Source: a bacterium
GTDB taxonomy: Bacteria > Patescibacteriota > Dojkabacteria > SC72
NCBI GenBank assembly: GCA_022840695.1
Contig: JALHDC010000002.1
Coordinates: 91,374 to 155,373 of the forward strand
Direction of reading: 5' to 3'
Length of the DNA stretch: 64,000 nucleotides
A program made the position numbers and the translations under genes. The notes beneath the pieces were generated by a model. It was not told the DNA's origin. It saw only the letters and a list, made by a program, of their open reading frames with translations, and did no database searches. This document shows positions 43,922 through 57,428 of this stretch, piece after piece. Each line of letters opens with the position of its first letter. Position 1 is the stretch's first letter.

Positions 43922-44428
43922 ATGACAAAAAGATTTCTTGATGATCCTACAGGTATAGAAGATAACTCAAAACAGGAAGCATTAGATAAAATACGATTTA
44001 ATATAGAAAATATGCTAACGGGAGGAGATCAATTCACGGTCGTAGATGAGATTGTATACAACATAAACTTAAAAGATATAAATGAGTATATAAAATTTTT
44101 GAAAGCAGATAAGACCCTACCTACAAAGCTAACAAGAATTAGATCATATGATGTAGATAATCTAGATCTTTTTGAGCAATTATGTGACTATACATCTGTA
44201 AACAATTCTGAAACTCCAAGAATATGGAATCAAAAAGTATATTTCATTGAATCAGGGGATTTTGCATTAACATTCATACCGATAGCTTTGGAAGACAAAA
44301 AGAGTGTAAACATATATATGGAACCTCTAGAAGAATCACCTGATTTCATTACAGAACTTTGGGCAAAGCTTAACGAAGAGAAAAAATTAGAGGATATTGA
44401 TTTTGTAGATTACAAAGATTTACTATAA
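43922..44428 (+). CDS. hypothetical protein
   Basis: 168 aa acidic ORF, no recognised motif. Confidence 0.4.
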   Translation: MTKRFLDDPTGIEDNSKQEALDKIRFNIENMLTGGDQFTVVDEIVYNINLKDINEYIKFLKADKTLPTKLTRIRSYDVDNLDLFEQLCDYTSVNNSETPRIWNQKVYFIESGDFALTFIPIALEDKKSVNIYMEPLEESPDFITELWAKLNEEKKLEDIDFVDYKDLL

Positions 44429-44854
44429 GAAATTCACGAGATTGTTCTTAACAAAATCTTCTATCTTCCCCCTTACTTCTTCCATATCCTTAACATTACT
44501 TCCTGCTGTATATACAGTGATATCAAATAACTCTTCCTCATTACAATCTAACCAATACCCATTCTTAGCTAAATATATTAATAATGCAAATATACCCATT
44601 CTTTTATTGCCATCCTCAAATGGATGATTCTTTATACATAGGTAATATAACATTGAAGCCTTAGACACAAGAGTAGGGTATAGATCATTACCTGATATTT
44701 GTTGAAATGGTTGTGTTATTGAACTATCTAACTTACCACTATTCCTAACCTCATACTCAGAACTACTACCATCATTCTCTCTCATATACTCAGTAAATAA
44801 CTGAGCAATATATTCTAATTCTTCCTTACTTACTCTCTTATCCATACTATGCAT
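44423..44854 (-). CDS. doc: Doc (death-on-curing) Fic-family toxin
   Basis: 143 aa with Doc-type Fic motif HPFEDGNKRMG. Confidence 0.8.
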   Translation of the reverse strand: MHSMDKRVSKEELEYIAQLFTEYMRENDGSSSEYEVRNSGKLDSSITQPFQQISGNDLYPTLVSKASMLYYLCIKNHPFEDGNKRMGIFALLIYLAKNGYWLDCNEEELFDITVYTAGSNVKDMEEVRGKIEDFVKNNLVNFL

Positions 44855-44972
44855 TTTGTAATTTAATTATTGTTTTACTATATTTATCCATGGTTCTATT
44901 AAATACCTTTTTTAGGAATTCTTTTTGTTCATTTGTAAGTTGTTTGTTTTCCATATATCTATGATTATACAT
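44847..44972 (-). CDS. unannotated 41-aa ORF overlapping the doc start (ATGCATAG), candidate Phd-like antitoxin
   Basis: Hand translation gives MYNHRYMENKQLTNEQKEFLKKVFNRTMDKYSKTIIKLQNA. Upstream of and overlapping doc, as in phd-doc modules. Confidence 0.4.
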   Translation of the reverse strand: MYNHRYMENKQLTNEQKEFLKKVFNRTMDKYSKTIIKLQNA

Positions 44973-44975
44973 ATG

Positions 44976-45004
44976 TTGAAAAAGAATGTTAAAGAAAATA
45001 TAAT
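44976..45004 (+). promoter_or_regulatory. sigma70-like promoter for tRNA-Val (TTGAAA-17 bp-TATAAT)
   Basis: Near-consensus hexamers with 17-bp spacer, about 15 bp upstream of tRNA 5' end. Confidence 0.55.
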
Positions 45005-45018
45005 CCATAGTATGTAAT

Positions 45019-45092
45019 GGGCGATTAGCTCAGCTGGTTAGAGCGTCACATTGACATTGTGAAGGTCACAGGTTCGAGTCCCGTATCGCCCA
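45019..45092 (+). tRNA. tRNA-Val (anticodon GAC), CCA not encoded
   Basis: Cloverleaf folded by hand: acceptor GGGCGAT/ATCGCCC, D-arm GCTC/GAGC, anticodon stem TCACA/TGTGA with loop TTGACAT, T-loop TTCGAGT. One A:C mismatch in the T-stem. Confidence 0.8.
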
Positions 45093-45136
45093 TTTTTGTT
45101 TTTCATGATTATAGGCAGAGAAAGAGATATAGGTTG

Positions 45137-45174
45137 TTTAGTTTTTAAGTTCGAGTCCTTCAGGGCCCACCATT
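45137..45174 (+). repeat. tRNA-3'-end-like repeat copy 1 (TTTAGTTTTTAAGTTCGAGTCCTTCAGGGCCCACCATT): T-loop + acceptor 3' strand + CCA, no 5' half
   Basis: Shares GTTCGAGTCC with tRNA-Val T-arm. Ends in GCCCACCA. Homologous to copy at 45734-45774. Confidence 0.6.
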
Positions 45175-45208
45175 CCCATAAAGCATACAGATAAAGTATA
45201 ATTATCTT

Positions 45209-45727
45209 ATGGATAAATATTATCTAGGCAACTTACAAGAGCTAGAAGAATTCTGTAATTTATACTTCCCTCTCATAACTAATTATTCAAGGTCTATATT
45301 GGGAGTAGATTTATCAAATAATACTTTTGAAGGTGATCACTTAGGCATTCAGACATCATCTCATGAAGAGTATACCCATTACTACAATCTCCTATCTTCA
45401 TACATGTCACACAACTTTACAAACGATTTACATGGTAGAAAAGTGTCAATATTTTCCTTTAGAGATGAATTTGTTTCCAATGATATTTCTTTAAAAGGTG
45501 TAGAGATATTTGAGCCTAAACCTAATGTAGATAATGGGAAAATTAAACTAGGTATAGAGCACATATCAATAATAGCCAAAGAGTATGATAAAACTTTTGA
45601 GAATATCTCAAGGGCATTTATTAATAAATCTGCTGAGTATCCTGAGGGTAGATTTTTTAAAACAAAGTTTACAAATCTCGTTGAAATAGAATTTAGAGAT
45701 AGAAGTTTAATTAAGAAAGATACTTAG
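45209..45727 (+). CDS. hypothetical protein (possibly VOC/glyoxalase-like fold)
   Basis: 172 aa, flanked on both sides by the 45-bp repeat. Fold assignment weak. Confidence 0.45.
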   Translation: MDKYYLGNLQELEEFCNLYFPLITNYSRSILGVDLSNNTFEGDHLGIQTSSHEEYTHYYNLLSSYMSHNFTNDLHGRKVSIFSFRDEFVSNDISLKGVEIFEPKPNVDNGKIKLGIEHISIIAKEYDKTFENISRAFINKSAEYPEGRFFKTKFTNLVEIEFRDRSLIKKDT

Positions 45728-45733
45728 AGAAGC

Positions 45734-45774
45734 TTTAGTTTTAAGTTCAAAGCCATCCAACACCTCCCACCATT
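45734..45774 (+). repeat. repeat copy 2 (TTTAGTTTTAAGTTCAAAGCCATCCAACACCTCCCACCATT), degenerate homolog of 45137-45174
   Basis: Aligns with copy 1 over TTTAGTTTT(T)AAGTTC and CCCACCATT. Confidence 0.55.
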
Positions 45775-46222
45775 AGAAAACTTTTTCCATCTCTATGTGT
45801 AGAACTATACCATCCTCATTAGGTATTTCTTTTAGATCCTTATAACCTAAGTGTTTGTAAAAACCATGTGCTACTAAACTAGACCACAACCAAATTCTTT
45901 TATAACCATTATCTTTAATACATTTCTCAGCTACTTCTGCTAATTCCCTACCTAAGCCTTTGCCCATTTGTGAAGGTAGTACATAAAGAGATCTCATCTT
46001 GTCCTCCTTTGCTAATACACAACCCACTATCTCTCCATCGTCTTCTACTACAAAATAATCGTCATTTGTAATATATTTGGTGAGTTTCTCATTGGTATAG
46101 TTATTAAAGGTCTCTTGTATATCATCTTCAGGGTATAAATCTTTATGTGTAGCTAGAATAGATTCTCTTATAACCTTCTGGATTGAGTCTATGTCATCTA
46201 TTCTTGCCTTTCTGATAATCAT
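45773..46222 (-). CDS. GNAT family N-acetyltransferase
   Basis: 149 aa with acetyl-CoA motif A region QMGKGLGRELAE. Confidence 0.75.
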   Translation of the reverse strand: MIIRKARIDDIDSIQKVIRESILATHKDLYPEDDIQETFNNYTNEKLTKYITNDDYFVVEDDGEIVGCVLAKEDKMRSLYVLPSQMGKGLGRELAEVAEKCIKDNGYKRIWLWSSLVAHGFYKHLGYKDLKEIPNEDGIVLHIEMEKVF

Positions 46223-46257
46223 AATATTAACATTTTATTTTAATATAGGAATTATAT

Positions 46258-46268
46258 CACCCACCATT
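46258..46268 (+). repeat. CCCACCATT motif copy 3 (ATCACCCACCATTAC), 23 nt upstream of the ORF at 46292
   Basis: Same 9-mer as copies 1, 2 and 4. Preceded by GAATTATATCAC, the extended -10 TGATATAAT for the divergent GNAT gene. Confidence 0.5.
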
Positions 46269-46291
46269 ACTATTTCCTGATATACTTAACC

Positions 46292-46876
46292 ATGAACTAT
46301 ACATTAGTAGTTATCCCAACTGAAAGAGATTTAAAATTTCTTAACAATCTAAGAAATTATATATACCAAAATGACTTTAGATTTAAAAACAAACCACTAG
46401 ATTCAGACACTCACATAACCATTGCGAACATCGAAATGGATGAAGACAAGATAGCCGAATTAAAGGAAACCCTACAAGCCAATATACACAAATTAAAACC
46501 ATTCACAATCAAGAAAGAAGAATATATATTAACAAAAGAAGACAAGGAACCTAATTACAAATTCGATAATCCATATACTTGGATAGCATTAAAATTTCCA
46601 CAAAGAAAAGATATATACCAAGAGTTAGACAGAATAACTAAGGAACTAGGAATTAATAATAATGAAGAATATATTAATAATGTAAGAAGGATAGAAAGGG
46701 ATATAGAAGAAAAAGATTATATTGCAAATCATATTAATTTAAGTAATTACACTAGAAGAGATAGAGCAAATGATTGTTGGAATTATTTTAATGATAATTT
46801 ACCTAAAGAAATATTATTTAATAAGATTGGATTAAGAGATGAGAAGGGGAAGATTATTTTCATAATAAAAATATAG
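46292..46876 (+). CDS. hypothetical protein with a single 2H-phosphoesterase-like H-x-T-x motif
   Basis: 194 aa. DSDTHITIANIE present; second HxT/S motif not found. Confidence 0.4.
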   Translation: MNYTLVVIPTERDLKFLNNLRNYIYQNDFRFKNKPLDSDTHITIANIEMDEDKIAELKETLQANIHKLKPFTIKKEEYILTKEDKEPNYKFDNPYTWIALKFPQRKDIYQELDRITKELGINNNEEYINNVRRIERDIEEKDYIANHINLSNYTRRDRANDCWNYFNDNLPKEILFNKIGLRDEKGKIIFIIKI

Positions 46877-46924
46877 GAAGACTGTAATTCTATAAAAAAG
46901 TTCATGCACTTACTATCCCCATCC

Positions 46925-47767
46925 CTACACCCTAGTCCTATTTACCTTCTCCCTCCCTTTATGTTGTTCTATATGCTTAATATAATATCCCTCAACTCTC
47001 TTTCTATAATCCACACCATTACTCTTAAAATATTGGAATATATCTAAATAATACCCAGAAGGAATATCAGAGGGTACACAATAACCATTCCTTTTCAACT
47101 GATCCCTTATGTATCTCAATTGATTAAATGTAAAAAGCTTTTTAAATGTATCTAACACATTCCCATTCATCTGATTAAAAATATATGTAATAAAATCCCT
47201 ATATAATTTAAATTCTTCCTCAGCATTATTCTTCTTCATAATCCTAAGTAAAACAATATCTACATTGGGTACAGGATTAAAATCCTCCCTATTAAAACTT
47301 TCAACCATACTAAGATTATATACAGAGGAAACTATTGCACCTATTTGAGTATTCTTTGGTATACCCATATATCTTTCAGCAGATTCTTTTTGAACAAATA
47401 TATATGCTTCAATTAGTTTTGATTCTATATCTGTAATTTTGTTAATAATATCTGAAGTTAAGGAAAATGGTATATTTGCAAACACTTTGTATCCATTATT
47501 GGGTAAGTCAGAGGTAAGGAAGTCTTCATTTTTTAAAACAACGTTAGGATTATCTTTAAAAAGTTCTTCCAATATACCAAAATATCTTGAATCTAATTCG
47601 TATGCTATTACGTTATTACAATGTTTTACTAATTCTTTTGTTATTGCTCCTGTACCAGCCCCTATATCAATTACAGTATCGTTATTAGAGATATTAATAG
47701 AAGTTATTATTCTTTCTAAATTTTTTTTATTTTTATATAAGTTTTGGGAATATTTAATATCTACCAT
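46925..47767 (-). CDS. Erm/KsgA-family rRNA adenine N6-methyltransferase (Erm-like)
   Basis: 280 aa. SAM motif IDIGAGTGAITKEL and YKVFANIPFSLTSDIINKI, close to the Erm YKIFGNIPYNISTDII pattern. Confidence 0.7.
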   Translation of the reverse strand: MVDIKYSQNLYKNKKNLERIITSINISNNDTVIDIGAGTGAITKELVKHCNNVIAYELDSRYFGILEELFKDNPNVVLKNEDFLTSDLPNNGYKVFANIPFSLTSDIINKITDIESKLIEAYIFVQKESAERYMGIPKNTQIGAIVSSVYNLSMVESFNREDFNPVPNVDIVLLRIMKKNNAEEEFKLYRDFITYIFNQMNGNVLDTFKKLFTFNQLRYIRDQLKRNGYCVPSDIPSGYYLDIFQYFKSNGVDYRKRVEGYYIKHIEQHKGREKVNRTRV

Positions 47768-47825
47768 ATGAGAATTATATCACTAGAATTAATTAGACAG
47801 GACTCTTAGGTTCTATACTTTTTAA

Positions 47826-47839
47826 TATCGCCCACCATT
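47826..47839 (+). repeat. CCCACCATT motif copy 4 (ATATCGCCCACCATTT): matches tRNA-Val acceptor 3' end TATCGCCCA plus CCA
   Basis: 9/9 identity to the tRNA-Val 3' end at 45084-45092, followed by CCA. Sits 26 nt upstream of GNAT gene 47866. Confidence 0.55.
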
Positions 47840-47865
47840 TATATTCTCTGCTATAATAATACCCT

Positions 47866-48330
47866 ATGATCCCCAACCTTACCTACAAACTAAATGATAT
47901 CTCAAACATAGATAACCCTCTAATACTCTCTATTAAAATATTCAATCCCTCTAAAGAAAAAACTTTAAAATACCATAACAAAGAAGATTGGTTAAACAAG
48001 ATTAAAGATAAAGGGATATTAATATCAGTATATGATGATGATAAGTGTATAGCCTTTGCAATCTGTTACAAAACTAATAGTGATACATTACATATATGGA
48101 ATGTAGGTGTTCTAGATGAATATAGAGGACTAGGTATATGGAGAGAAACATATAACAGAATAATTGATTATGCTATTAAACAAGGTTTTAAGAAAATAAC
48201 ATTAAATACATATAAGGATAAATTCCCTAATATGTATGCATTTGTAAAGAAAGAAAGTTTTGATTTAATAAAAGAAGAATTTAACAAAGATGGGGAAATG
48301 AAGTCTTGTTTTGTTAAAAGGGTTAGATAG
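47866..48330 (+). CDS. GNAT family N-acetyltransferase
   Basis: 154 aa with motif VLDEYRGLGIWRE. Confidence 0.7.
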   Translation: MIPNLTYKLNDISNIDNPLILSIKIFNPSKEKTLKYHNKEDWLNKIKDKGILISVYDDDKCIAFAICYKTNSDTLHIWNVGVLDEYRGLGIWRETYNRIIDYAIKQGFKKITLNTYKDKFPNMYAFVKKESFDLIKEEFNKDGEMKSCFVKRVR

Positions 48331-48557
48331 GATACTCTGATATACCTAAATGATGATAAAAATATCACTCAGGATAATTGGTATCCAGTATAGGGATAAA
48401 AGAGATAAGGTTCTGGAAGAACTAAAGAAGATAGGGGAGTATTATTTAAAGAGGAATTTGAGTTTGTAATATTTAATATCTCTAGCCATTTTCTCAAAAA
48501 CATATAACTTCGAATTTTTTAAATTCCTTCCTCTCAAAACACCTGGGAAAAGTCTCT

Positions 48558-49097
48558 CTATTTATTAAAATATTTACTTAATATAAATTTCTTTCTCCAT
48601 TCTCTAGTAGGAATAGGATATGCCCCTAATTTATCTTCAGAAAGCTTATCATAAAAATCATTCCAAAAATTACAAGTTGGATATGCACATCCTTTTCCTG
48701 ACCTATTCCTTATTACACTATCCTGAGGTTTACCATTGTATGTATAGTTAATCATGTTTTTAGGATCCCTAGAAAAGGAATTTAAAGATGTAGTCACTGC
48801 CTTAAAAATACATTCATTACCATTCTCATCCTCAAAAGAATGGATTATAAATAAATTATCCTTCTTAGGATTGTATGTATTCTGTACTTCGGGAATAATG
48901 AAATTCTTCTTGTTAAGAACCTGTTCCCATAATCGAACATGTTCCGAATCACATGTAATAGAATTAATGTAACACTCTTTAGAGGCAGAGGATATAACAG
49001 GCCATCCAGCCTCTTCCCAATCAGATTCCGTAAGAGATTGAAGTAATGGTTCTATTTCAACAACTTCATTTTCTCTCACAGTATCCTGAAATTCCAT
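48558..49097 (-). CDS. hypothetical protein
   Basis: 179 aa, Cys- and Trp-containing, no recognised motif. Confidence 0.4.
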   Translation of the reverse strand: MEFQDTVRENEVVEIEPLLQSLTESDWEEAGWPVISSASKECYINSITCDSEHVRLWEQVLNKKNFIIPEVQNTYNPKKDNLFIIHSFEDENGNECIFKAVTTSLNSFSRDPKNMINYTYNGKPQDSVIRNRSGKGCAYPTCNFWNDFYDKLSEDKLGAYPIPTREWRKKFILSKYFNK

Positions 49098-49202
49098 AGA
49101 AAATTATACCATTAAATATATATATTTTAGTTAAATCTATTTCACTAGTATGTATTACAAACACCTGCTATATTCAGTTAATAATATATTAAATATATAC
49201 AT

Positions 49203-49898
49203 ATGACTGATCTACACAATATCCAAATGTTAATACTTAGAGAACTCCTCTTCACACCAAACTCCAGATTCTCTGATTTAAATATACAAGGATTAAGTAG
49301 TGATCATTTTTCATACCATATTAAAACATTAATAGAACAGGAATATGTACAAAAGGATAGTTCTAGATACTCATTAACTGTAAAGGGAAAGGAATTTGCA
49401 AACCGTATGGATACTGATGAAGCAAGTATTGAGAAGCAACCTAAAGTAGCAGTAATGATTGTAGCTACTAAGACAGAAGGAAAAAAGAAATATCTATTAA
49501 TACAAGAAAGAACTAAAGAACCATATTTTGGATATAGTGGATTTATAACAGGAAAGATTAGATATGGAGAGAAGGTTATAGAGACTGCAAAAAGAGAACT
49601 TAAAGAAGAGAGTGGGTTAGAGTGTGAGAATATACATATTAAAAGGTTAGTACATGATCATGTTGTATTAAAAGATACAGGAGAGTTAGTAGAGGATAAG
49701 ATGTTCTACATTGTACATATGATTAATCCAACAGGAGAGTTAATAAATACTCCAAATGGAAAGAATATATGGATAACGGAGAGTCAGTTTAAGAAACTTA
49801 AAAAGAAATATTACAATGAAGAAAATATGTATGAGATATCACAGATGAAAGGGGATATGGATCTAGTAGAGAGTACATATATTATTGAGGAGTTTTAG
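49203..49898 (+). CDS. winged-helix (HTH) - Nudix hydrolase fusion protein
   Basis: 231 aa. N-terminal wHTH-like segment. Nudix box GKIRYGEKVIETAKRELKEESGLE. Confidence 0.7.
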   Translation: MTDLHNIQMLILRELLFTPNSRFSDLNIQGLSSDHFSYHIKTLIEQEYVQKDSSRYSLTVKGKEFANRMDTDEASIEKQPKVAVMIVATKTEGKKKYLLIQERTKEPYFGYSGFITGKIRYGEKVIETAKRELKEESGLECENIHIKRLVHDHVVLKDTGELVEDKMFYIVHMINPTGELINTPNGKNIWITESQFKKLKKKYYNEENMYEISQMKGDMDLVESTYIIEEF

Positions 49899-50891
49899 TT
49901 AGTGAATTAATTTCTCAACTAACCCTTCTAAACCTTTTGAATAAAAATCTAACATACTTATCTCATTATCTAAAAAGCAATCAACCCTTGTACTATTGTT
50001 TACATAATGTTCTGTCGCTATCCATAAGGAATGAACTTTCTTTAAAAAGTAAACCTTGAAACCGTCCATTAATTCCTCCTTAGAAATATCATATACATTT
50101 CTATACGAATCTAGAAATACCTTAGCATTAGATCTGCACTCATCATCATATCCCAAATTTAAACATGTTAGATCCAAAGCCCTAACTAACTCATATGATC
50201 TAGGAGCTATAGTTGTATTATCCAAATCAAAAACATATTTGATTTCATCTACATCATTATCAAAGAAAACATTCTTCTCATGATAATCTCCATGTATTAG
50301 ATGATCATTCTTTATATTAAAGTCTTCAAATCTTAAATCATTTTCCTTAGCCATATTAATCTTCTTTTCTAGGTATATTGCAAATTTCATATCTATATCA
50401 CTCTTCTCCTTCATATTTTGAATCTGAAGCAATATCCTTTCTGCTTCCTTTACAAACTCCTCCATATCCCAGTATTTTTTACTTCTAAAAACAGTAGAGG
50501 GATAACCATCCTTACTCACTAGATGTATTCTTCCTAAGATATTTCCTAAAGAAGATATAGCTTGATTAGAAAGATTCTCTCTTCTTAACATACGACCATA
50601 TACAAAAGGATATAGAGTGTAGTATTTTTCTTTAAATGTAAATACCTTACTCCCATCTTTACACTCATATGGCATAACTATTGGAATATCTTTCTTAAAG
50701 AATATATCCTCAACCTTATGTATATTATCAATCCTTTCTATATCATCAAACCCATACTGCTTAAGAAAGTATTTCTTTCCATCATCTATTAATATACTAT
50801 TAACACTAATATATCCCTCTTTTACATCTTCCAACAATCTTAATTCACCCTTTAAATCATATATCTTCTTTAATTGTTGTATAACTTCCAT
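49899..50891 (-). CDS. APH/ChoK-family phosphotransferase (aminoglycoside/macrolide phosphotransferase-like kinase)
   Basis: 330 aa. Catalytic loop HGDYHEKNVFFD, Mg-binding VFDLDNT, beta3 Lys region YFLKQY. Confidence 0.7.
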   Translation of the reverse strand: MEVIQQLKKIYDLKGELRLLEDVKEGYISVNSILIDDGKKYFLKQYGFDDIERIDNIHKVEDIFFKKDIPIVMPYECKDGSKVFTFKEKYYTLYPFVYGRMLRRENLSNQAISSLGNILGRIHLVSKDGYPSTVFRSKKYWDMEEFVKEAERILLQIQNMKEKSDIDMKFAIYLEKKINMAKENDLRFEDFNIKNDHLIHGDYHEKNVFFDNDVDEIKYVFDLDNTTIAPRSYELVRALDLTCLNLGYDDECRSNAKVFLDSYRNVYDISKEELMDGFKVYFLKKVHSLWIATEHYVNNSTRVDCFLDNEISMLDFYSKGLEGLVEKLIH

Positions 50892-50913
50892 ATTTAGAAA
50901 TACTGTATTAAAT

Positions 50914-51195
50914 ATGTTATTCTATACAAATATTAAGATTAAGACCAGAGAACAGGGTATGCCTAGACCACAAAAATTCAAACCAGGAGTATATAAACAT
51001 TTTAAGGGTGAACTATTCCTTGCACTATTCTTAGCAAAACATAGTGAGACAGAAGAAGATATGGTTATATATGTAGGACTATATGACAAAACAAAAGGAC
51101 AGATATGGGCTAGACCTGTAGATATGTTTATGGGCTACAAAGAGTTTGAAGACGGTACTAAGGTAAAGAGATTTGAATTTATTAGGGAGAGATAA
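50914..51195 (+). CDS. DUF1653-like protein
   Basis: 93 aa. YKHFKGELF...VIYVGLYD...WARPVDMF pattern. Confidence 0.5.
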   Translation: MLFYTNIKIKTREQGMPRPQKFKPGVYKHFKGELFLALFLAKHSETEEDMVIYVGLYDKTKGQIWARPVDMFMGYKEFEDGTKVKRFEFIRER

Positions 51196-51461
51196 TGACA
51201 ACGAAGGAAAAATACAAAGCACTAAAGAACGGAAAATGGCAAAACAAATATTTCTGTAAATTAGCATTACTAGATCATTTAAGAGAATGCCTGGAAAAAG
51301 ATAATTATCTTAAAGCTACAGACACACCTAAAAGTGATTTGGGATATGAAAACTTGGAAAAAGAGCTCATGGATTTAAAAATCATTCTTGATTTGTATTT
51401 CAATGATTCGACTTTGCACGAAAAAAGATTAGACAAATTCATAGAAAATTTGGAAAAATAA
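51195..51461 (+). CDS. hypothetical protein
   Basis: 88 aa ORF whose start overlaps the preceding stop. Confidence 0.4.
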   Translation: MTTKEKYKALKNGKWQNKYFCKLALLDHLRECLEKDNYLKATDTPKSDLGYENLEKELMDLKIILDLYFNDSTLHEKRLDKFIENLEK

Positions 51462-51494
51462 AATCTCTCCGAACCTTCTTTTTACCCCCTTTTT

Positions 51495-53411
51495 GTGCTA
51501 AAATTACACCCTCTTATGCCAAATTCCCATATTGAGAAACAAAACTTAAGAAATCTTGCTATTATCGCGCATGTAGACCATGGCAAAACTACCCTTGTAG
51601 ATGCATTCATGAAGCAAACTCATATGTTTAGAGAAAATGAAGAAGAAATGAATCAAACTAGAATACTGGATGTAGGGGAATTAGAAAAGGAGAAAGGTAT
51701 AACCATAAATGCAAAGAACATATCCATTAAGTATAAGGATGTAAAAATAAATATCATAGATACACCAGGACATGCAGACTTTGGAGGAGAAGTAGAAAGA
51801 ACATTAAATATGGCAGATAGCTGTCTTCTTTTGGTGGATGCAAAAGAAGGTACAATGCCACAAACTAAATTTGTACTTAAAAAAGCATTAGAATTAGGAT
51901 TAAAACCAGTAGTACTGGTAAATAAGGTGGACAAGAAACTAGCTAATGTACAAAAAACAATATCTAAAATACAAGACCTCTTTCTTAATTTAGCAACTAA
52001 TGAAGAGCAATTAGATTTTAAAATATTCTACGGTATAGCTAGAGAAGGAAAAATATGGGAAACATTACCCCAAGGAGATTTAACCATACCAAATAGTACA
52101 ACAGGAGATCTCACACCAATACTAGATGAAATTGTAAACAATCTACCTAGTCCAAAAGGAGATGAGAACAAACCATTCCAAATGCAAATTACATCTGTTG
52201 AGTACAATGAGCACTTAGGAAGATATTTAATTGGAAAAATATCAAACGGGAAAATATCCGTAAATGATCCTGTAATACTTGTTTCAAATAAAGAAGATTT
52301 TGAAAAGAAACAGGGTAGAGTTAGAGAGATATTTGTGAAAGAGGGTATGAGTTGGGAAAAGGTTGAAAGTGCATCTACTGGTGAAATAATTGCATTAACA
52401 GGAATTGATTCTACAGATATTGGTGCGACACTTTGTAGCTTAGATAATCCTCAACCATTACCAGAAATTAAAATGACTCCACCATCTGTGAGAGTTAAAT
52501 TTTCTGCTAATACATCTCCTTTTGTAGGAAAAGAGGGGAAATTTGTAACTGCAAAACAGCTAGGACAAAGGTTAGAACAGGAGAAGAATTTAAATATTAG
52601 TTTGAATATAACTAATGTAGGAAGTAACAGCTATTTTGTAGCTGGTAGGGGAGAATTGCAATTGGCAATATTAGTAGAACAGCTAAGAAGAGAAGGGTAT
52701 GAATTTGAATTGAGTAAACCAGAGGTAATACTACAAGAGATAGATGGGGTAAAGTGTGAACCTATGGAAGAATTAAGTATTAATGCTCCAGAAATGTACT
52801 TTAGTACAATAACCCAAGAAGTTAATGAAAGGGGAGGAAAATTAATAGATATTGAGAATAATGAAGGAGAAAACACATATACATTTAATATACTAACTAG
52901 AAATCTAATAGGATTACATAGAGTATTAATGACAGCTACCAAAGGTACTGCCGTTATTAATAGCTATATTGTTGACTATGTACCACATCAAGAAGGTAAT
53001 GAGTTATTTAGAAAAGGAGCTATTATATCCACTGAGACAGGAACAGCATTAGCATATGCATTGATGACAGTACAAGAGAGAGGGAAATTATTCATAGAGG
53101 GTTCTACAGAGGTATATGAAGGAATGATTATTGGTATAAATAATCATGAGAATGATCTTGAGGTTAATCCATGTAAGGCAAGACATAAGACAAATGTAAG
53201 AATGTCTCATGCAGAAGTAACAGAGATAGCACTTAAAGCACCTATACAATTAACCATAGAGTATGCTCTTTCTTTTATAAATAATGATGAATTAATAGAG
53301 GTCACACCTAAGAACATAAGGTTAAGAAAGAAACTTTTAACTGATACACAGAGAACTTGGGCAAAAAGAAAGAACTTAACTGCATATGCAAAAGAGCATT
53401 TGGAAGGATAA
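51495..53411 (+). CDS. typA: translational GTPase TypA/BipA
   Basis: 638 aa. G1 AIIAHVDHGKTTLVD and EF-G-like domains. Confidence 0.9.
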   Translation: MLKLHPLMPNSHIEKQNLRNLAIIAHVDHGKTTLVDAFMKQTHMFRENEEEMNQTRILDVGELEKEKGITINAKNISIKYKDVKINIIDTPGHADFGGEVERTLNMADSCLLLVDAKEGTMPQTKFVLKKALELGLKPVVLVNKVDKKLANVQKTISKIQDLFLNLATNEEQLDFKIFYGIAREGKIWETLPQGDLTIPNSTTGDLTPILDEIVNNLPSPKGDENKPFQMQITSVEYNEHLGRYLIGKISNGKISVNDPVILVSNKEDFEKKQGRVREIFVKEGMSWEKVESASTGEIIALTGIDSTDIGATLCSLDNPQPLPEIKMTPPSVRVKFSANTSPFVGKEGKFVTAKQLGQRLEQEKNLNISLNITNVGSNSYFVAGRGELQLAILVEQLRREGYEFELSKPEVILQEIDGVKCEPMEELSINAPEMYFSTITQEVNERGGKLIDIENNEGENTYTFNILTRNLIGLHRVLMTATKGTAVINSYIVDYVPHQEGNELFRKGAIISTETGTALAYALMTVQERGKLFIEGSTEVYEGMIIGINNHENDLEVNPCKARHKTNVRMSHAEVTEIALKAPIQLTIEYALSFINNDELIEVTPKNIRLRKKLLTDTQRTWAKRKNLTAYAKEHLEG

Positions 53412-53413
53412 TA

Positions 53414-53710
53414 TTACTTCTTCCTTTTTACAAACCTTATTTCAAGATCTCTATCTAAAGCATTAGCTATTTGGACTAATTTAGAAATAGACACATTTCT
53501 ATTCCCTGTTTCAATCTTACTAATCGTGCTACGTGGTATACCTGATTTAATAGACAAAGTATCTTGAGAATATCCATACTTCTCTCTAAGCTCTTTCATT
53601 TCCCTTAGGGCTATTCTTTGATTTGCTACTCTTTCTATTTCCTTAACATCTTCAGATGTAAAGTTCTTTTTTATATATTCTTCTATTGTTATTAAATTTT
53701 TCTTTTTCAT
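53414..53710 (-). CDS. higA: HTH XRE-family antitoxin (HigA-like)
   Basis: 98 aa Cro/C1-type HTH. Immediately downstream of the HigB-like toxin. Confidence 0.75.
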   Translation of the reverse strand: MKKKNLITIEEYIKKNFTSEDVKEIERVANQRIALREMKELREKYGYSQDTLSIKSGIPRSTISKIETGNRNVSISKLVQIANALDRDLEIRFVKRKK

Positions 53711-53716
53711 ATTTTT

Positions 53717-54040
53717 CTATATTAATCTATTTTTTCTCTTTAATGCCTTTTCTATCTCTCTCAAAGGTGTTTTCTGTGTCTTCTTTCTAAATGCAGTAAG
53801 AATAACGATGTCTTGCCCTAAGTAAGAATACATACATCTATATATCCCGTCATCCTTTACCCTCATCTCGTATAAATCGTAGCCCACAATCTTTCTTCCT
53901 TCTGGATATTTCAACGTTCCATATTTTCTCAACTCTAGGATCAAAGATACAAATTCCTTTCTAACACTCTTCTCAAAAAGAGCTAGCTCTTTTTCTGCAC
54001 TGGATTCTATATATACTTCTTTTCTAAATAATTGTGTCAT
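53717..54040 (-). CDS. higB: RelE/ParE-superfamily toxin, Gp49/HigB-like
   Basis: 107 aa. C-terminus FRKKTQKTPLREIEKALKR matches the Gp49-like toxin signature. Confidence 0.75.
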   Translation of the reverse strand: MTQLFRKEVYIESSAEKELALFEKSVRKEFVSLILELRKYGTLKYPEGRKIVGYDLYEMRVKDDGIYRCMYSYLGQDIVILTAFRKKTQKTPLREIEKALKRKNRLI

Positions 54041-56483: not shown

Positions 56484-57428
56484 CTACAACATTATTACTT
56501 TTTGTATCTCCTCAAAACTATCACATTTCATTAACTCTTTTCTCAATTCATTAGCACCATCAAAATTACATATATATGCTTTAATATATTTTTTTTGACT
56601 ATTAAATGGTTTTTTCCCTCTCCATACTTTTTCAAATATTTCAAAATGCTTAATCAATATATCTATTCTTTCTTCTTTCGATATCTCCTCCCTTCCACTA
56701 AACAACCAAGGATTATTCAAAATACCTCTGCCTACCATAAAACCATCCACTCCATATTTTTTTACATACTCTTTTCCTTGTTCCAAATTTTTTACATCAC
56801 CATTACCAATAATTAAAGTATCTGGAGATATCTCGTCCCTTAATGTCGCACACTCTGCAATCTTTTCCCAATTTGATGGAGTAGAGTAGCCATCTTTAGA
56901 AATTCTCCCATGAATTGTAATTAGGTCTAACTTTAGTTCAAGTAAGAACCTAATCCAACCATTTATATCAATATCATCATAACCCAACCTTGTTTTAACA
57001 CTCACAGGTATCCTTCCAGCTTCACCTCGGACAGTATCTAAAATCCTTTTAACCAATTCTCTATCTTTTATTAATGCGGAACCTCGGCCACCAGACAACA
57101 CATCTCTAACAGAACATCCAATATTTATATCAATACCTGCTGGTCTAAGTTTCTTTACATACCTGACTGTCTCTGCATAATATTCAGGAATATTCCCCCA
57201 AAGTTGGACGATAACTGGTCTCTCCTTCTTTGAAAGATGTAACCTATGTGAGACCTGCTCTCTACCTTTTGAACAAAACCCTTCTACACTTAAGAACTCT
57301 GTGAAAAATATATCCGGTCTACCTATATTACACAGAACCTGCCTAAAACTAGAATCCGTAATACCTTCCATTGGTGCTAAAGCAGTAATATATCCTTTTT
57401 TCTTTTTTAATCTTTTATAAGAATTCAT
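56484..57428 (-). CDS. dus: tRNA-dihydrouridine synthase
   Basis: 314 aa TIM barrel. LAPMEGITD, INIGCS and VKTRLGYDD motifs. Confidence 0.85.
   Translation of the reverse strand: MNSYKRLKKKKGYITALAPMEGITDSSFRQVLCNIGRPDIFFTEFLSVEGFCSKGREQVSHRLHLSKKERPVIVQLWGNIPEYYAETVRYVKKLRPAGIDINIGCSVRDVLSGGRGSALIKDRELVKRILDTVRGEAGRIPVSVKTRLGYDDIDINGWIRFLLELKLDLITIHGRISKDGYSTPSNWEKIAECATLRDEISPDTLIIGNGDVKNLEQGKEYVKKYGVDGFMVGRGILNNPWLFSGREEISKEERIDILIKHFEIFEKVWRGKKPFNSQKKYIKAYICNFDGANELRKELMKCDSFEEIQKVIML

What the first reader, a model, noticed from the sequence alone, without database searches (positions are those of the whole stretch)
44423..51494. tRNA-Val-adjacent accessory island enriched in small-molecule-modifying enzymes plus a toxin module
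The 7 kb between clpP and typA holds no housekeeping genes. It holds a Doc toxin, tRNA-Val, two GNAT acetyltransferases, an Erm-like rRNA adenine methyltransferase, an APH/ChoK-type kinase, an HTH-Nudix fusion, a DUF1653 protein and five hypothetical proteins. Gene orientation alternates, unlike the co-directional housekeeping blocks. The enzyme set resembles classical antibiotic-modification or target-protection functions. That is unexpected in a reduced, probably symbiotic genome and could reflect defence against metabolites from a host or neighbour, or a ribosome/RNA modification and repair set.
Basis: partly seen in the sequence, partly recalled or inferred. Interest (0 to 1): 0.6.

Follow-up and report, generated by a model that had tools for sequence, protein, structure and literature searches.

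The report
Gene-cassette array anchored at tRNA-Val
The 7.7 kb between clpP and typA in this Dojkabacteria (candidate phyla radiation) genome is a real variable accessory region, and its left part is a row of single genes separated by short copies of the 3' end of the neighbouring tRNA-Val gene, which looks like the record of repeated site-specific insertions rather than a recently imported antibiotic-resistance island.

Summary
The gene inventory is confirmed: Doc toxin, tRNA-Val(GAC), two GNATs, an Erm-type methyltransferase, an APH-fold kinase, wHTH-Nudix, DUF1653 and five unassigned ORFs, with ten consecutive strand switches. The window comes from a Candidatus Dojkabacteria MAG.

No relative has clpP next to typA. 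Every related species carries a different set of small enzymes at this place. GC3 and codon usage do not deviate, so recent foreign import is unlikely.

The methyltransferase is not KsgA. It scores higher on the Erm model than on the ksgA model, its nearest relatives do the same, and more than 120 clusters in Dojkabacteria-type contigs carry it.

The new result is a ~36-nt repeat, R. Its last 13 nt equal the 3' end of tRNA-Val plus CCA. R occurs 29 times in 334 kb of Dojkabacteria DNA, only in loci that carry the erm-like gene, always in one orientation, and that is the tRNA-Val's orientation wherever the tRNA is on the locus. It brackets the erm-like gene in most species. In one species the tRNA-Val 3' end itself sits exactly where R sits in the others.

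Best reading: an array of single-gene units accreted at tRNA-Val, analogous to tandem tRNA/tmRNA islands. No recombinase is in the window. The antibiotic-resistance interpretation is only partly supported.

The parts
43922..44428 (+). 168-aa ORF of unknown function between clpP and Doc
   Evidence: ORF. Only a sub-threshold DUF7026 hit. A 33%-identical homologue lies at the far end of the L089 array.
44423..44854 (-). Doc (Fic-fold) toxin
   Evidence: Pfam Fic 51.9 bits. TIGR01550 DOC_P1 56.2 bits against cutoff 38.65. Motif HPFEDGNKR read from the translation. Lies upstream of the tRNA, outside the R array.
44847..45008 (-). 53-aa ORF overlapping the Doc start by 8 nt; putative antitoxin (inferred from position only)
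   Evidence: No Pfam, NCBIfam or PADLOC hit.
45018..45093 (+). tRNA-Val(GAC), CCA not encoded; anchor of the array
   Evidence: ARAGORN. Rfam tRNA 68.1 bits. Sequence.
45140..45172 (+). R#1: tRNA 3' fragment (T-loop GTTCGAGTCC, then 11 nt, then CCA), without the 5' half of a tRNA
   Evidence: (repeat D15). Same T-loop-to-end spacing as the real tRNA-Val.
45209..45727 (+). YecM/VOC-fold protein (172 aa), flanked by R#1 and R#2
   Evidence: Pfam YecM 30.3 bits against cutoff 25.
45738..45774 (+). R#2: diverged R copy ending CCCACCATT
   Evidence: nhmmer 13.5 bits, E = 0.018. Direct repeat of R#1 (D15)..
45773..46222 (-). GNAT acetyltransferase (149 aa), generic
   Evidence: Acetyltransf_10, _7 and _1. 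All NCBIfam hits far below cutoff. 68% identity to the copy in species B.
46254..46267 (+). R#3: partial R (TATCACCCACCATT), one mismatch from the tRNA-Val 3' end plus CCA
   Evidence: D2; 5 bits, weak.
46292..46876 (+). 194-aa ORF; possible 2H/LigT-like phosphoesterase (weak)
   Evidence: LigT_PEase 20 bits against cutoff 23.3. AF2 model unusable, pLDDT 44.
46895..46924 (+). R': degenerate R copy (AAAAAAGTTCATGCACTTACTATCCCCATCC) abutting the erm stop codon
   Evidence: Read by eye. Not significant by nhmmer. Its position matches R at the erm stop codon in L085, L091 and L092.
46925..47767 (-). Erm-type rRNA adenine N6-methyltransferase (280 aa), oriented opposite to R and bracketed by R' and R#4
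   Evidence: RrnaAD 149 bits. Erm23S_rRNA_broad 198.2 bits (cutoff 212) against ksgA 141 bits (cutoff 171). Best PDB hits ErmC' 1e-27, ErmAM 7e-27, ErmE 3e-20, ahead of KsgA 9e-19. Relatives classified.
47805..47839 (+). R#4: full R copy; its last 12 nt (TATCGCCCACCA) equal the last 9 nt of tRNA-Val plus CCA
   Evidence: nhmmer 24.2 bits, E = 8e-6..
47866..48330 (+). GNAT acetyltransferase (154 aa), generic
   Evidence: Acetyltransf_1 49.9 bits. No NCBIfam assignment.
48558..49097 (-). 179-aa ORF of unknown function, restricted to this lineage
   Evidence: No family. Four homologue clusters. Homologues in L006 and L089. AF2 pLDDT 37.
49203..49898 (+). Winged-HTH + Nudix fusion (231 aa); conserved flank gene
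   Evidence: NUDIX 54.8 bits plus sub-threshold wHTH hits. 92% identity in species B and 69% in species C.
49899..50891 (-). APH-fold kinase (330 aa), substrate unknown
   Evidence: Pfam APH 66.5 bits. NCBIfam best hits YihE/SrkA-type and homoserine kinase II, far below cutoff. HGDYHEKN motif in the translation. 42 relatives, none above 43% identity apart from the 100%-identical cluster of the query itself.
50914..51195 (+). DUF1653 protein (93 aa)
   Evidence: 70.2 bits. Conserved next to typA in species B.
51195..51461 (+). 88-aa ORF of unknown function
   Evidence: No family.
51495..53411 (+). typA/bipA; right-hand core flank
   Evidence: 95% identity in species B.
53414..54040 (-). HTH_3 antitoxin-like plus Gp49 (HigB-like) pair just beyond typA
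   Evidence: Conserved in species B.

Best explanation
The clpP-typA interval is the local form of a lineage-wide plastic region of Dojkabacteria genomes. It is attached to a tRNA-Val gene.

The part just downstream of the tRNA (about 45.1-47.9 kb) is a row of one-gene units: yecM-like, GNAT, LigT-like, erm-like, GNAT. They are separated by copies of R, a ~36-nt site that is a diverged copy of the last ~30 nt of tRNA-Val including CCA.

The most likely origin is repeated site-specific integration of small circular units at the 3' end of tRNA-Val. Each event regenerates the tRNA and leaves a hybrid att site (R) behind. This is what happens when genomic islands accrete in tandem at tRNA or tmRNA genes. 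Recombination between R copies then shuffles, inverts and deletes units. That accounts for the different gene sets in each species and for the loss of any consistent gene orientation. The recombinase would act in trans, because none is encoded in the window. In this species several R copies are decaying and the gene order is fixed, so the array is probably a fossil here.

The cargo is native to the lineage's own gene pool, not foreign. It encodes small, independently transcribed enzymes. The erm-like gene is the most constant unit. It is an Erm-type (Erm(42)-like long form) adenine-N6 methyltransferase and most probably methylates 23S rRNA.

Shown: gene content, turnover between species, lack of compositional deviation, the R family with its distribution, orientation and identity to the tRNA end, and the Erm-over-KsgA classification.

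Inferred: integration as the origin of R, a trans-acting recombinase, and every biochemical function.
For: Source and synteny:
- The window is contig JALHFM010000006.1 of the Dojkabacteria MAG GCA_022839185.1.
- Species B (typA 95% identical) keeps erm (66%), GNAT149 (68%), wHTH-Nudix (92%) and DUF1653 (71%). It lacks six of the window's genes and has others in their place.
- Species C (typA 86%) has wHTH-Nudix, NADAR, ASCH, APH (40%), UDG and the hyp179 homologue.
- Dojkabacteria with typA at 74-81% identity have none of these genes within the flanking DNA held (up to 10 kb).
- L089 has sortase-tig-clpP followed by tRNA-Val(GAC), then a different set of about 20 genes, and ends at dus/clpB.

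Composition:
- No deviation in GC3 or codon usage.

The repeat R:
- CCCACCA occurs 6 times in 64 kb. Four are intergenic, on the + strand, followed by TT, and lie within 2.8 kb downstream of the tRNA.
- An nhmmer profile built from 19 copies finds 29 hits with E < 0.02 in 334 kb of Dojkabacteria DNA. Apart from one marginal partial hit at a contig end (L008, E = 0.01, + strand), all lie in loci that carry the erm-like gene. All are on one strand per locus. None is in housekeeping flanks or in the remaining 57 kb of the window.
- The strand of R is the strand of tRNA-Val in the window, L085, L089, L092 and L093.
- R ends in ATATCGCCCACCA. This is identical to the 3' end of the L093 tRNA-Val(TAC), which encodes CCA. 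R's 5' part matches the T-arm at 9 of 13 positions, with a 4-nt insertion.
- In L093 the tRNA-Val 3' end lies 5 nt from the erm stop codon. R lies in the same place, 2-5 nt from the stop, in L085, L091 and L092.
- The erm-like gene is bracketed by two R copies in L085, L091 and L092, and by R#4 plus the eye-read degenerate R' in the window. L089 and L093 have R only on the start side, where in L093 the tRNA-Val end takes the other place. L087 has none adjacent.
- The two sequence subtypes of R are swapped at orthologous positions between species.
- R is unstructured.

In neighbouring species the same region also holds a large serine recombinase, MmeI and HpaII restriction-modification systems, GmrSD, PIN and an FtsK-like gene.

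Erm assignment.

Lineage-wide presence: more than 120 clusters at 57% identity or higher, all 260-292 aa (nearly all 276-285); every cluster that carries a taxon name is named Dojkabacteria or Patescibacteria.
Against: - No integrase or other recombinase is present in the 64-kb window. None lies next to tRNA-Val in L089, L085 or L093.
- 22 of 29 R copies precede a co-oriented gene, often 19-28 nt before its ATG with a -10 box in between. R could therefore be, or have become, a regulatory element.
- In the window only two copies are statistically significant. R#1, R#3 and R' rest on short matches or on inspection by eye.
- The right half of the interval (48.3-51.5 kb) has no recognisable R, yet it also varies between species.
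- The gene order is identical in at least 9 assemblies of this species, so there is no sign of ongoing mobility.
- No free or phage-borne copy of R was found.
- The resident tRNA-Val(GAC) does not encode the CCA that R carries.
Confidence: 0.6

Rival explanations
1. The region is a functional antibiotic-resistance or self-protection island. Erm protects the ribosome from macrolide, lincosamide and streptogramin B drugs. The APH-fold kinase and the GNATs inactivate aminoglycoside-like or other drugs made by hosts or neighbours.
For: - The methyltransferase is Erm-type. It scores 198 bits on the Erm model against 141 on ksgA, and its nearest PDB relatives are ErmC', ErmAM and ErmE.
- Four of ten nearest outgroup representatives pass the NCBIfam Erm cutoff.
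- The APH fold has an intact HGDxxxxN motif, and the only PDB hit is spectinomycin phosphotransferase.
- CPR genomes are reported to be rich in resistance-like genes (PMC8651080).
Against: - The kinase's best family hits are YihE/SrkA-type protein kinase and homoserine kinase II, at 64 and 43 bits against cutoffs of 194 and 256. The PDB hit is only E = 3e-4.
- The GNATs match no resistance family above cutoff.
- Orthologous regions in relatives carry Nudix (up to four copies), HD, UDG, NADAR, ASCH, glyoxalase and peptidase genes rather than drug-modifying enzymes.
- The CPR methyltransferases that were tested gave no resistance phenotype in E. coli (bioRxiv 10.64898/2026.07.13.738296).
- The Erm model score is below the curated cutoff.
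Confidence: 0.25
2. R is not a recombination scar. It is a transcriptional control element, such as an operator or upstream promoter module, shared by a regulon of small accessory genes. The wHTH-Nudix protein might bind it. Its resemblance to the tRNA-Val end is ancestral or incidental.
For: - 22 of 29 R copies are followed by a co-oriented gene.
- In L089 and the window R ends 23-36 nt before the ATG, with a TGnTAnnnT -10 box in between.
- R is well conserved across species whose proteins have diverged to 60-80% identity.
Against: - R keeps one orientation regardless of the orientation of the next gene. It flanks the oppositely oriented erm gene on both sides, including at its stop codon.
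- The distance from R to the next start codon ranges from 19 to 400 nt.
- The 13-nt identity with tRNA-Val plus CCA, and the positional replacement of R by the tRNA end in L093, would have no explanation.
- R is not palindromic and has no internal repeat, unlike most operator sites.
- Near-identical -10 boxes close to the ATG occur in front of housekeeping genes that have no R.
Confidence: 0.2
3. This is an ordinary, vertically inherited stretch of fast-evolving non-essential genes. Differences between species come from random loss, local rearrangement and decay. The R copies are leftovers of old tandem duplications of the tRNA-Val gene.
For: - No compositional deviation.
- Arrangement fixed within the species.
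- No mobility gene in the window.
- Several R copies in the window are decayed.
Against: - Decayed tRNA duplicates would not keep a 36-nt consensus that includes a conserved non-tRNA insertion across at least six species, at up to seven copies per locus.
- Different, unrelated genes lie between R copies in each species.
- Serine recombinase, restriction-modification and FtsK-like genes occupy the same region in relatives.
Confidence: 0.12
4. The erm-like gene is a constitutive ribosome-biogenesis enzyme of Dojkabacteria. It is either the functional replacement of KsgA or a fixed 23S modification enzyme unrelated to antibiotics.
For: - It is present in more than 120 clusters at 57% identity or higher with near-constant length (260-292 aa), and it is the most constant unit of the region.
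- rsmA (K02528) is detected in only 82% of CPR genomes (Supplementary Table 3 of PMC12641178, seen).
- No second RrnaAD gene is present in the window or in the Dojkabacteria loci held.
Against: - The Erm model beats the ksgA model by 57 bits.
- The alignment to ErmC' runs end to end without the insertion that B. subtilis KsgA shows before motif IV. The N-terminus reads SQN as in Erm proteins, where B. subtilis KsgA has GQN.
- The gene lies in the most plastic part of the genome, next to different neighbours in every species.
- Only about 0.3 Mb of Dojkabacteria DNA was available, so the absence of KsgA was not tested.
Confidence: 0.2

Closest known systems
Tandem genomic islands at tRNA/tmRNA genes, for example the ssrA-specific islands of Dehalococcoides (PMC3146451)
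   Same: - Several units are inserted one after another at the 3' end of a small stable-RNA gene.
- Each unit is bounded by a direct repeat of that 3' end, all in one orientation.
- Cargo differs between strains or species.
   Different: - The units here are 0.5-1.5 kb and usually hold one gene. Typical islands are 10-30 kb and carry their own recombinase.
- No recombinase is linked to the units.
- The repeat is a diverged 36-nt copy with a 4-nt insertion, not an exact duplicate.
CIMEs (cis-mobilizable elements) and ICE/IME accretion at tRNA genes in streptococci (reviewed in PMC5704250)
   Same: DNA segments flanked by att sites that lack their own integration and transfer genes. They accumulate next to a tRNA gene and depend on a recombinase supplied in trans.
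   Different: - CIMEs are derived from ICEs by deletion and lie next to an ICE. No ICE or conjugation module is seen here.
- The organisms are CPR bacteria with genomes under 1 Mb (largest contig seen 760 kb).
- The units are single genes.
Integrons and CALINs (attC clusters without an integrase)
   Same: - A compact array of mostly single-gene units separated by a repeated site of uniform orientation.
- Cargo consists of small enzymes, acetyltransferases and toxins.
- Array content differs between close relatives.
   Different: - There is no intI.
- R does not form the attC hairpin.
- The units carry their own promoters.
- The anchor is a tRNA gene, not attI.
Erm(42) and other Erm 23S rRNA A2058 methyltransferases
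   Same: - RrnaAD fold with Erm-like N-terminus and indel pattern.
- Full-length similarity to the Erm(42) model, including the C-terminal extension (model positions 15-297 of 303).
   Different: - 198 bits against the Erm_broad cutoff of 212, and 134 bits against the Erm(42) cutoff of 600.
- About 33% or lower identity to characterised Erm proteins.
- It is chromosomal and lineage-wide.
- Target and phenotype are untested.
phd-doc type II toxin-antitoxin modules
   Same: A Doc toxin with an intact HxFx(D/N)(A/G)NKR motif, preceded by a small overlapping ORF on the same strand.
   Different: The upstream ORF matches no antitoxin family. The module lies on the 5' side of the tRNA, outside the R array.

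Membership tests
Erm (23S rRNA adenine-N6 methyltransferase) | Score at or above the curated cutoff of NCBIfam NF000499 Erm23S_rRNA_broad (212 bits) | tested here: not met
   198.2 bits. Of ten relative representatives, four score 233-241 bits and six, including the Dojkabacteria representative P0167, score 158-207 bits.
Erm (23S rRNA adenine-N6 methyltransferase) | Closer to Erm than to KsgA in sequence and indel architecture | tested here: met
   Erm model 198 bits against ksgA 141 bits. ErmC' 100 bits against the best KsgA at 71 bits. End-to-end alignment with ErmC', no KsgA insertion, SQN motif. All ten relatives score higher on Erm than on ksgA.
Erm (23S rRNA adenine-N6 methyltransferase) | Methylates A2058 of 23S rRNA and confers MLSB resistance | not testable with these tools
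   Needs expression and primer extension or mass spectrometry. The CPR methyltransferases tested by others gave no phenotype in E. coli (bioRxiv 10.64898/2026.07.13.738296).
KsgA/RsmA (16S A1518/A1519 dimethyltransferase) | Score at or above the TIGR00755 cutoff (171 bits), and the only RrnaAD paralogue in the genome | tested here: not met
   141 bits. Whether a separate KsgA exists elsewhere in the genome could not be tested, because only 64 kb of it was available. No second copy is in the window.
Doc toxin (type II TA) | TIGR01550 above cutoff, and the Fic motif HxFx(D/N)(A/G)NKR | tested here: met
   56.2 bits against 38.65. HPFEDGNKR is in the translation.
Doc toxin (type II TA) | Cognate Phd-type antitoxin encoded immediately upstream | tested here: inconclusive
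   A 53-aa ORF overlaps the Doc start by 8 nt. It has no family hit.
Aminoglycoside or other antibiotic phosphotransferase (resistance APH) | Assignment to a resistance-type APH family, beyond the general kinase fold | tested here: not met
   Only Pfam APH at 66.5 bits. NCBIfam best hits are YihE/SrkA-type and homoserine kinase II, below cutoff. PDB hit APH(9) at E = 3e-4 only.
tRNA-integrated genomic island | Lies at the 3' side of a tRNA gene and is bounded by direct repeats of the tRNA 3' end | tested here: met
   tRNA-Val at 45018-45093, with R copies at 45140, 45738, 46254 and 47805 in the same orientation. The same pattern occurs in L085, L089, L092 and L093.
tRNA-integrated genomic island | Encodes an integrase or recombinase | tested here: not met
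   None in the window. A large serine recombinase lies about 9 kb from the array in L091 only.
tRNA-integrated genomic island | Composition differs from the host genome | tested here: not met
   GC3 0.249 against 0.235, p = 0.15. Codon-choice likelihood is better than that of the flanks.
Integron / CALIN | attC sites that fold into an imperfect hairpin, intI, and promoterless cassettes | tested here: not met
   R folds no better than shuffled sequence (z = 0.2, -0.6 and 0.8). No intI. Each unit has a -10 box.

The most novel reading that the evidence does not exclude
Dojkabacteria have an integron-like gene-capture system of a new type. Single-gene units with their own promoters are inserted and exchanged at the 3' end of tRNA-Val genes through a 36-nt tRNA-derived site (R). 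A recombinase encoded elsewhere in the genome, or on a helper element, carries out the reaction. This would give bacteria with very small genomes a dedicated, swappable compartment for accessory enzymes, including an Erm-type methyltransferase.
Probability: 0.3. Interest if true: 0.8.

Novelty: new variant of a known kind. Interest (0 to 1): 0.6.

Why it matters
CPR bacteria have very small genomes and are thought to exchange few genes, so how they keep any flexible gene content is an open question. A compact array of swappable one-gene units anchored to a tRNA would be a concrete mechanism for it. It would also explain why resistance-like genes such as erm are repeatedly reported in these genomes.

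R gives a simple sequence handle for finding such arrays, for delimiting the units, and for looking for the recombinase.

For resistance surveys the message is one of caution. The erm-like gene is an old, lineage-wide resident, not a recently acquired clinical-type determinant. The kinase and the acetyltransferases cannot be called resistance genes on present evidence.

Tried and rejected
- **KsgA elsewhere in the genome.** Only the window and about 0.27 Mb of related loci were available. tblastn with the erm-like protein found no second paralogue in Dojkabacteria DNA. The supplements of PMC12641178 hold no per-genome rsmA table. Unresolved.
- **Structure prediction.** The 194-aa LigT-like ORF (single sequence) gave pLDDT 44. 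The 179-aa ORF (4-sequence alignment) gave pLDDT 37. Both are unusable, so no fold search was run.
- **Search for R in public collections.** The pattern AAGTTCCATGC-N13-CCCACCA was scanned against viral contigs and metagenome contigs. It returned 2 and 11 hits. All are single copies in contigs of 38-65% GC with nhmmer scores of 13 bits or less, so they are chance matches. There is no evidence for a phage-borne attP. The metagenome scan also failed to return the JGI contigs that are known to hold R, so this negative result is weak.
- **PADLOC.** Only Doc and, weakly, the Nudix/wHTH protein match candidate defence models. The region is not a recognised defence system.
- **Rfam.** Nothing except the tRNA.
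- **Classical att repeat at the typA end.** No copy of the tRNA end lies near 51.4 kb.
- **Leaderless promoters as an island-specific trait.** Rejected, because the same -10-to-ATG spacing and lack of a Shine-Dalgarno sequence occur across the window.
- **R as a dif/Xer site or an attC site.** Rejected on lack of dyad symmetry and lack of structure.
- **Strain-level rearrangement.** At least 9 assemblies of the species show the same gene order.

Full report
**Source and observation**

The window is part of contig JALHFM010000006.1 of GCA_022839185.1. Its relatives are labelled Candidatus Dojkabacteria, a class of the candidate phyla radiation.

- Doc toxin (TIGR01550 56 bits against cutoff 38.65, motif HPFEDGNKR), with a 53-aa ORF that overlaps its start
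- tRNA-Val(GAC)
- a YecM/VOC-like protein
- two generic GNATs
- a weak LigT-like ORF
- an RrnaAD methyltransferase
- a lineage-restricted 179-aa ORF
- a wHTH-Nudix fusion
- an APH-fold kinase
- DUF1653
- an 88-aa ORF

The flanks and the rest of the window are housekeeping genes. Gene orientation switches at 10 of 10 successive pairs, against 17 of 52 elsewhere in the window.

**Is it an island in the sense of foreign DNA?**

No. The mean GC of the twelve genes is slightly lower than that of the others (0.298 against 0.321). GC3 does not differ (0.249 against 0.235, p = 0.15). Synonymous codon choice fits the rest of the window at least as well as the housekeeping genes fit each other.

**Synteny**

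No relative has clpP next to typA.
- The sister species (L005 = L087, typA 95% identical) keeps erm (66%), GNAT149 (68%), wHTH-Nudix (92%) and DUF1653 (71%). It replaces the remaining genes with three further Nudix genes, HD, DUF5680, a SAM-methyltransferase, UDG, DUF218, another APH, an MmeI-type restriction-modification enzyme and an HNH protein.
- A species with typA at 86% identity has wHTH-Nudix, NADAR, ASCH, APH (40%), UDG and the 179-aa ORF's homologue.
- L089 has sortase-tig-clpP-tRNA-Val(GAC), followed by Nudix, peptidase S66, YecM, glyoxalase, HD, erm, an S41-like protein, a GNAT and others, and ends at dus/clpB.
- Other species place the erm-like gene next to PIN, HpaII restriction-modification, GmrSD and an FtsK-like gene (L085). 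Others place it next to MmeI and a large serine recombinase (L091, L092), or directly beside tRNA-Val(TAC) (L093).

The region is therefore a plastic zone shared by the lineage, with species-specific content.

**The methyltransferase**

It scores 198.2 bits on NCBIfam Erm23S_rRNA_broad (cutoff 212) and 141 bits on ksgA (cutoff 171).

Its best solved relatives are ErmC' (1e-27), ErmAM and ErmE, ahead of any KsgA. The alignment with ErmC' runs from residue 3 to 248. It lacks the insertion that B. subtilis KsgA shows before motif IV. It shares the N-terminal (N/D)IK(Y/H)SQN motif of the Erm proteins.

An exhaustive HMMER search finds 235 representative clusters at E <= 1e-30. The nearest non-Dojkabacteria ones (33-40% identity) cover the full length, including the C-terminal tail. 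All ten representatives tested score higher on Erm than on ksgA. Four pass the Erm cutoff, and most align with Erm(42) over nearly its whole length.

More than 120 clusters at 57% identity or higher, of 260-292 aa (nearly all 276-285), exist. Every cluster that carries a taxon name is named Dojkabacteria or Patescibacteria.

So the condition 'simply KsgA' is not met. This is an Erm-branch enzyme that is an old resident of the lineage. I could not test whether a separate KsgA exists elsewhere in the genome.

The literature already reports erm as the commonest resistance-like methyltransferase in CPR genomes, and reports no resistance phenotype for the candidates that were tested (PMC8651080; bioRxiv 10.64898/2026.07.13.738296).

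**Kinase and acetyltransferases**

The kinase keeps the catalytic HGDxxxxN motif. It matches only YihE/SrkA-type and homoserine-kinase-II models, far below cutoff, and has one marginal PDB hit. It has 42 relatives, none above 43% identity apart from the 100%-identical cluster of the query itself. The GNATs are unclassifiable. None of these can be called a resistance gene.

**The repeat R**

A repeat search drew attention to a T-loop-like sequence 50 nt after the tRNA.

The heptamer CCCACCA occurs six times in the 64 kb. Four of these are intergenic, on the tRNA's strand, followed by TT, and lie within 2.8 kb downstream of tRNA-Val.

The same motif in relatives revealed a ~36-nt family. Its consensus is TTTTTAAGTTCCATGCC[TTTTAATATC or TGAAAGTGTA]GCCCACCATT.

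A profile built from 19 copies finds 29 hits (E < 0.02) in 334 kb of Dojkabacteria DNA. Apart from one marginal partial hit at a contig end (L008, E = 0.01, + strand), all are in loci that carry the erm-like gene. All are on one strand per locus. None is in housekeeping flanks, in the other 57 kb of the window, or in the Dojkabacteria loci that lack these genes. That strand is the strand of tRNA-Val wherever the tRNA is on the locus.

The last 13 nt of R (ATATCGCCCACCA) equal the 3' end of the L093 tRNA-Val(TAC), which encodes CCA. They equal the last 9 nt of the window's tRNA-Val plus CCA. The 5' part of R resembles the T-arm at 9 of 13 positions, with a 4-nt insertion.

R lies at gene boundaries. 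The erm-like gene is always oriented against R. It is bracketed by two copies in L085, L091 and L092, and by R#4 plus the eye-read degenerate R' in the window; L089 and L093 have R only on the start side, and L087 has none adjacent. In L093 the tRNA-Val end itself lies 5 nt from the erm stop codon, exactly where R lies (2-5 nt) in L085, L091 and L092.

R has no secondary structure. The two sequence subtypes of R are exchanged at orthologous positions between species.

In the window the copies are:
- R#1, 45140-45172: the most tRNA-like copy
- R#2, 45738-45774: E = 0.018
- R#3, 46254-46267: partial
- R', about 46895-46924: degenerate, identified by eye
- R#4, 47805-47839: E = 8e-6

These give the order tRNA-Val | R | yecM-like | R | GNAT | R | LigT-like | R' | erm | R | GNAT.

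**Interpretation**

A short site with these four properties is the classical signature of site-specific integration into a tRNA gene, with tandem accretion:
- it copies the 3' end of a tRNA
- it is repeated in one orientation downstream of that tRNA
- it separates unrelated genes
- it is replaced by the tRNA end itself in one species

Comparable cases are ssrA islands in Dehalococcoides (PMC3146451) and CIME/ICE accretion (PMC5704250). What is unusual here is the unit size (mostly one gene, 0.5-1.5 kb), the absence of a linked recombinase, and the host lineage.

This is not an integron. There is no intI, no attC hairpin, and each unit has its own -10 box.

The main rival is that R is a regulatory element. 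22 of 29 copies precede a co-oriented gene, often at 19-28 nt. However, the orientation of R is independent of the neighbouring gene. The distance to the next start codon ranges up to 400 nt. The same promoter architecture occurs without R across the window.

**Limits**

No recombinase is in the window. The right half of the interval has no R. Only two window copies are statistically significant. The arrangement is fixed in at least 9 assemblies of this species, although three contigs break inside the tRNA-Val. Scans for R in viral and metagenome collections gave only chance hits. Structure predictions for two unassigned ORFs failed.

**Verdict**

- The 'resistance island' interpretation is partly supported: the region is accessory, linked to the tRNA, and carries an Erm-type enzyme. 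There is no evidence of foreign origin or of a drug-modification set.
- The more interesting result is the tRNA-Val-derived repeat that partitions the region into one-gene units across the Dojkabacteria examined. I read this as a new variant of tandem tRNA-site accretion, with confidence about 0.6. There is about a 0.3 chance that it is an active, integron-like capture system.

Noticed in passing
window 45094-45208, mainly 45140-45172: The spacer after tRNA-Val holds a tRNA 3' fragment ending GGGCCCACCA. It has a canonical T-loop and an encoded CCA but no 5' half. Its acceptor sequence differs from the resident tRNA-Val, so it may derive from another tRNA or from an element-borne copy.
   Followed up: partly
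window, upstream of many genes (e.g. 9732, 20259, 46292, 47767, 47866, 49097, 54129, 56484-57428, 62122): A -10 box, often in the extended form TGnTAnnnT, lies 5-9 nt before the start codon. Shine-Dalgarno sequences are almost absent (1 of 64 genes). This suggests that most mRNAs in this genome are leaderless.
   Followed up: partly
window 53414-54040: A second toxin-antitoxin-like pair (Gp49/HigB-like plus an HTH_3 antitoxin) lies directly after typA, only 2 nt from its stop codon. It is conserved in the sister species at 57% and 68% identity, while typA is 95% identical.
   Followed up: partly
window 20259-22745: An 828-aa protein (DUF2341 plus an Ig-like domain) has the highest GC in the window (0.39, with a local peak of 0.43 at 21-22 kb). 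It is probably a secreted or surface protein with compositionally distinct repeats.
   Followed up: no
L111, L114, L115 (assemblies of the same species); window about 45046-45067: Three independent assemblies end inside the tRNA-Val gene. This may reflect strain variation or repeat-induced graph breaks at the anchor of the array.
   Followed up: no
L087 14624-18138; L091 11903-15459; L092 11633-14416: A conserved block lies next to the R array in three species. It holds an MmeI-type restriction-modification enzyme, with an HNH protein and two unassigned ORFs in L087 and L091 (L092 keeps MmeI and the two unassigned ORFs but no HNH call). In L091 a large serine recombinase follows about 5 kb further on. 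This may be a mobile element that uses the same region.
   Followed up: no
window 49203-49898 and L005 8504-9196: The wHTH-Nudix fusion is 92% identical between two species whose neighbouring accessory genes are 57-71% identical. That is nearly as conserved as typA (95%), which suggests an important and possibly regulatory role.
   Followed up: no
window 48331-48557: This is the largest intergenic gap of the region (227 nt, between convergent genes). It contains AAGGTTCTGGAAGAAC, which might be a fully decayed R copy. It is not significant by nhmmer.
   Followed up: no
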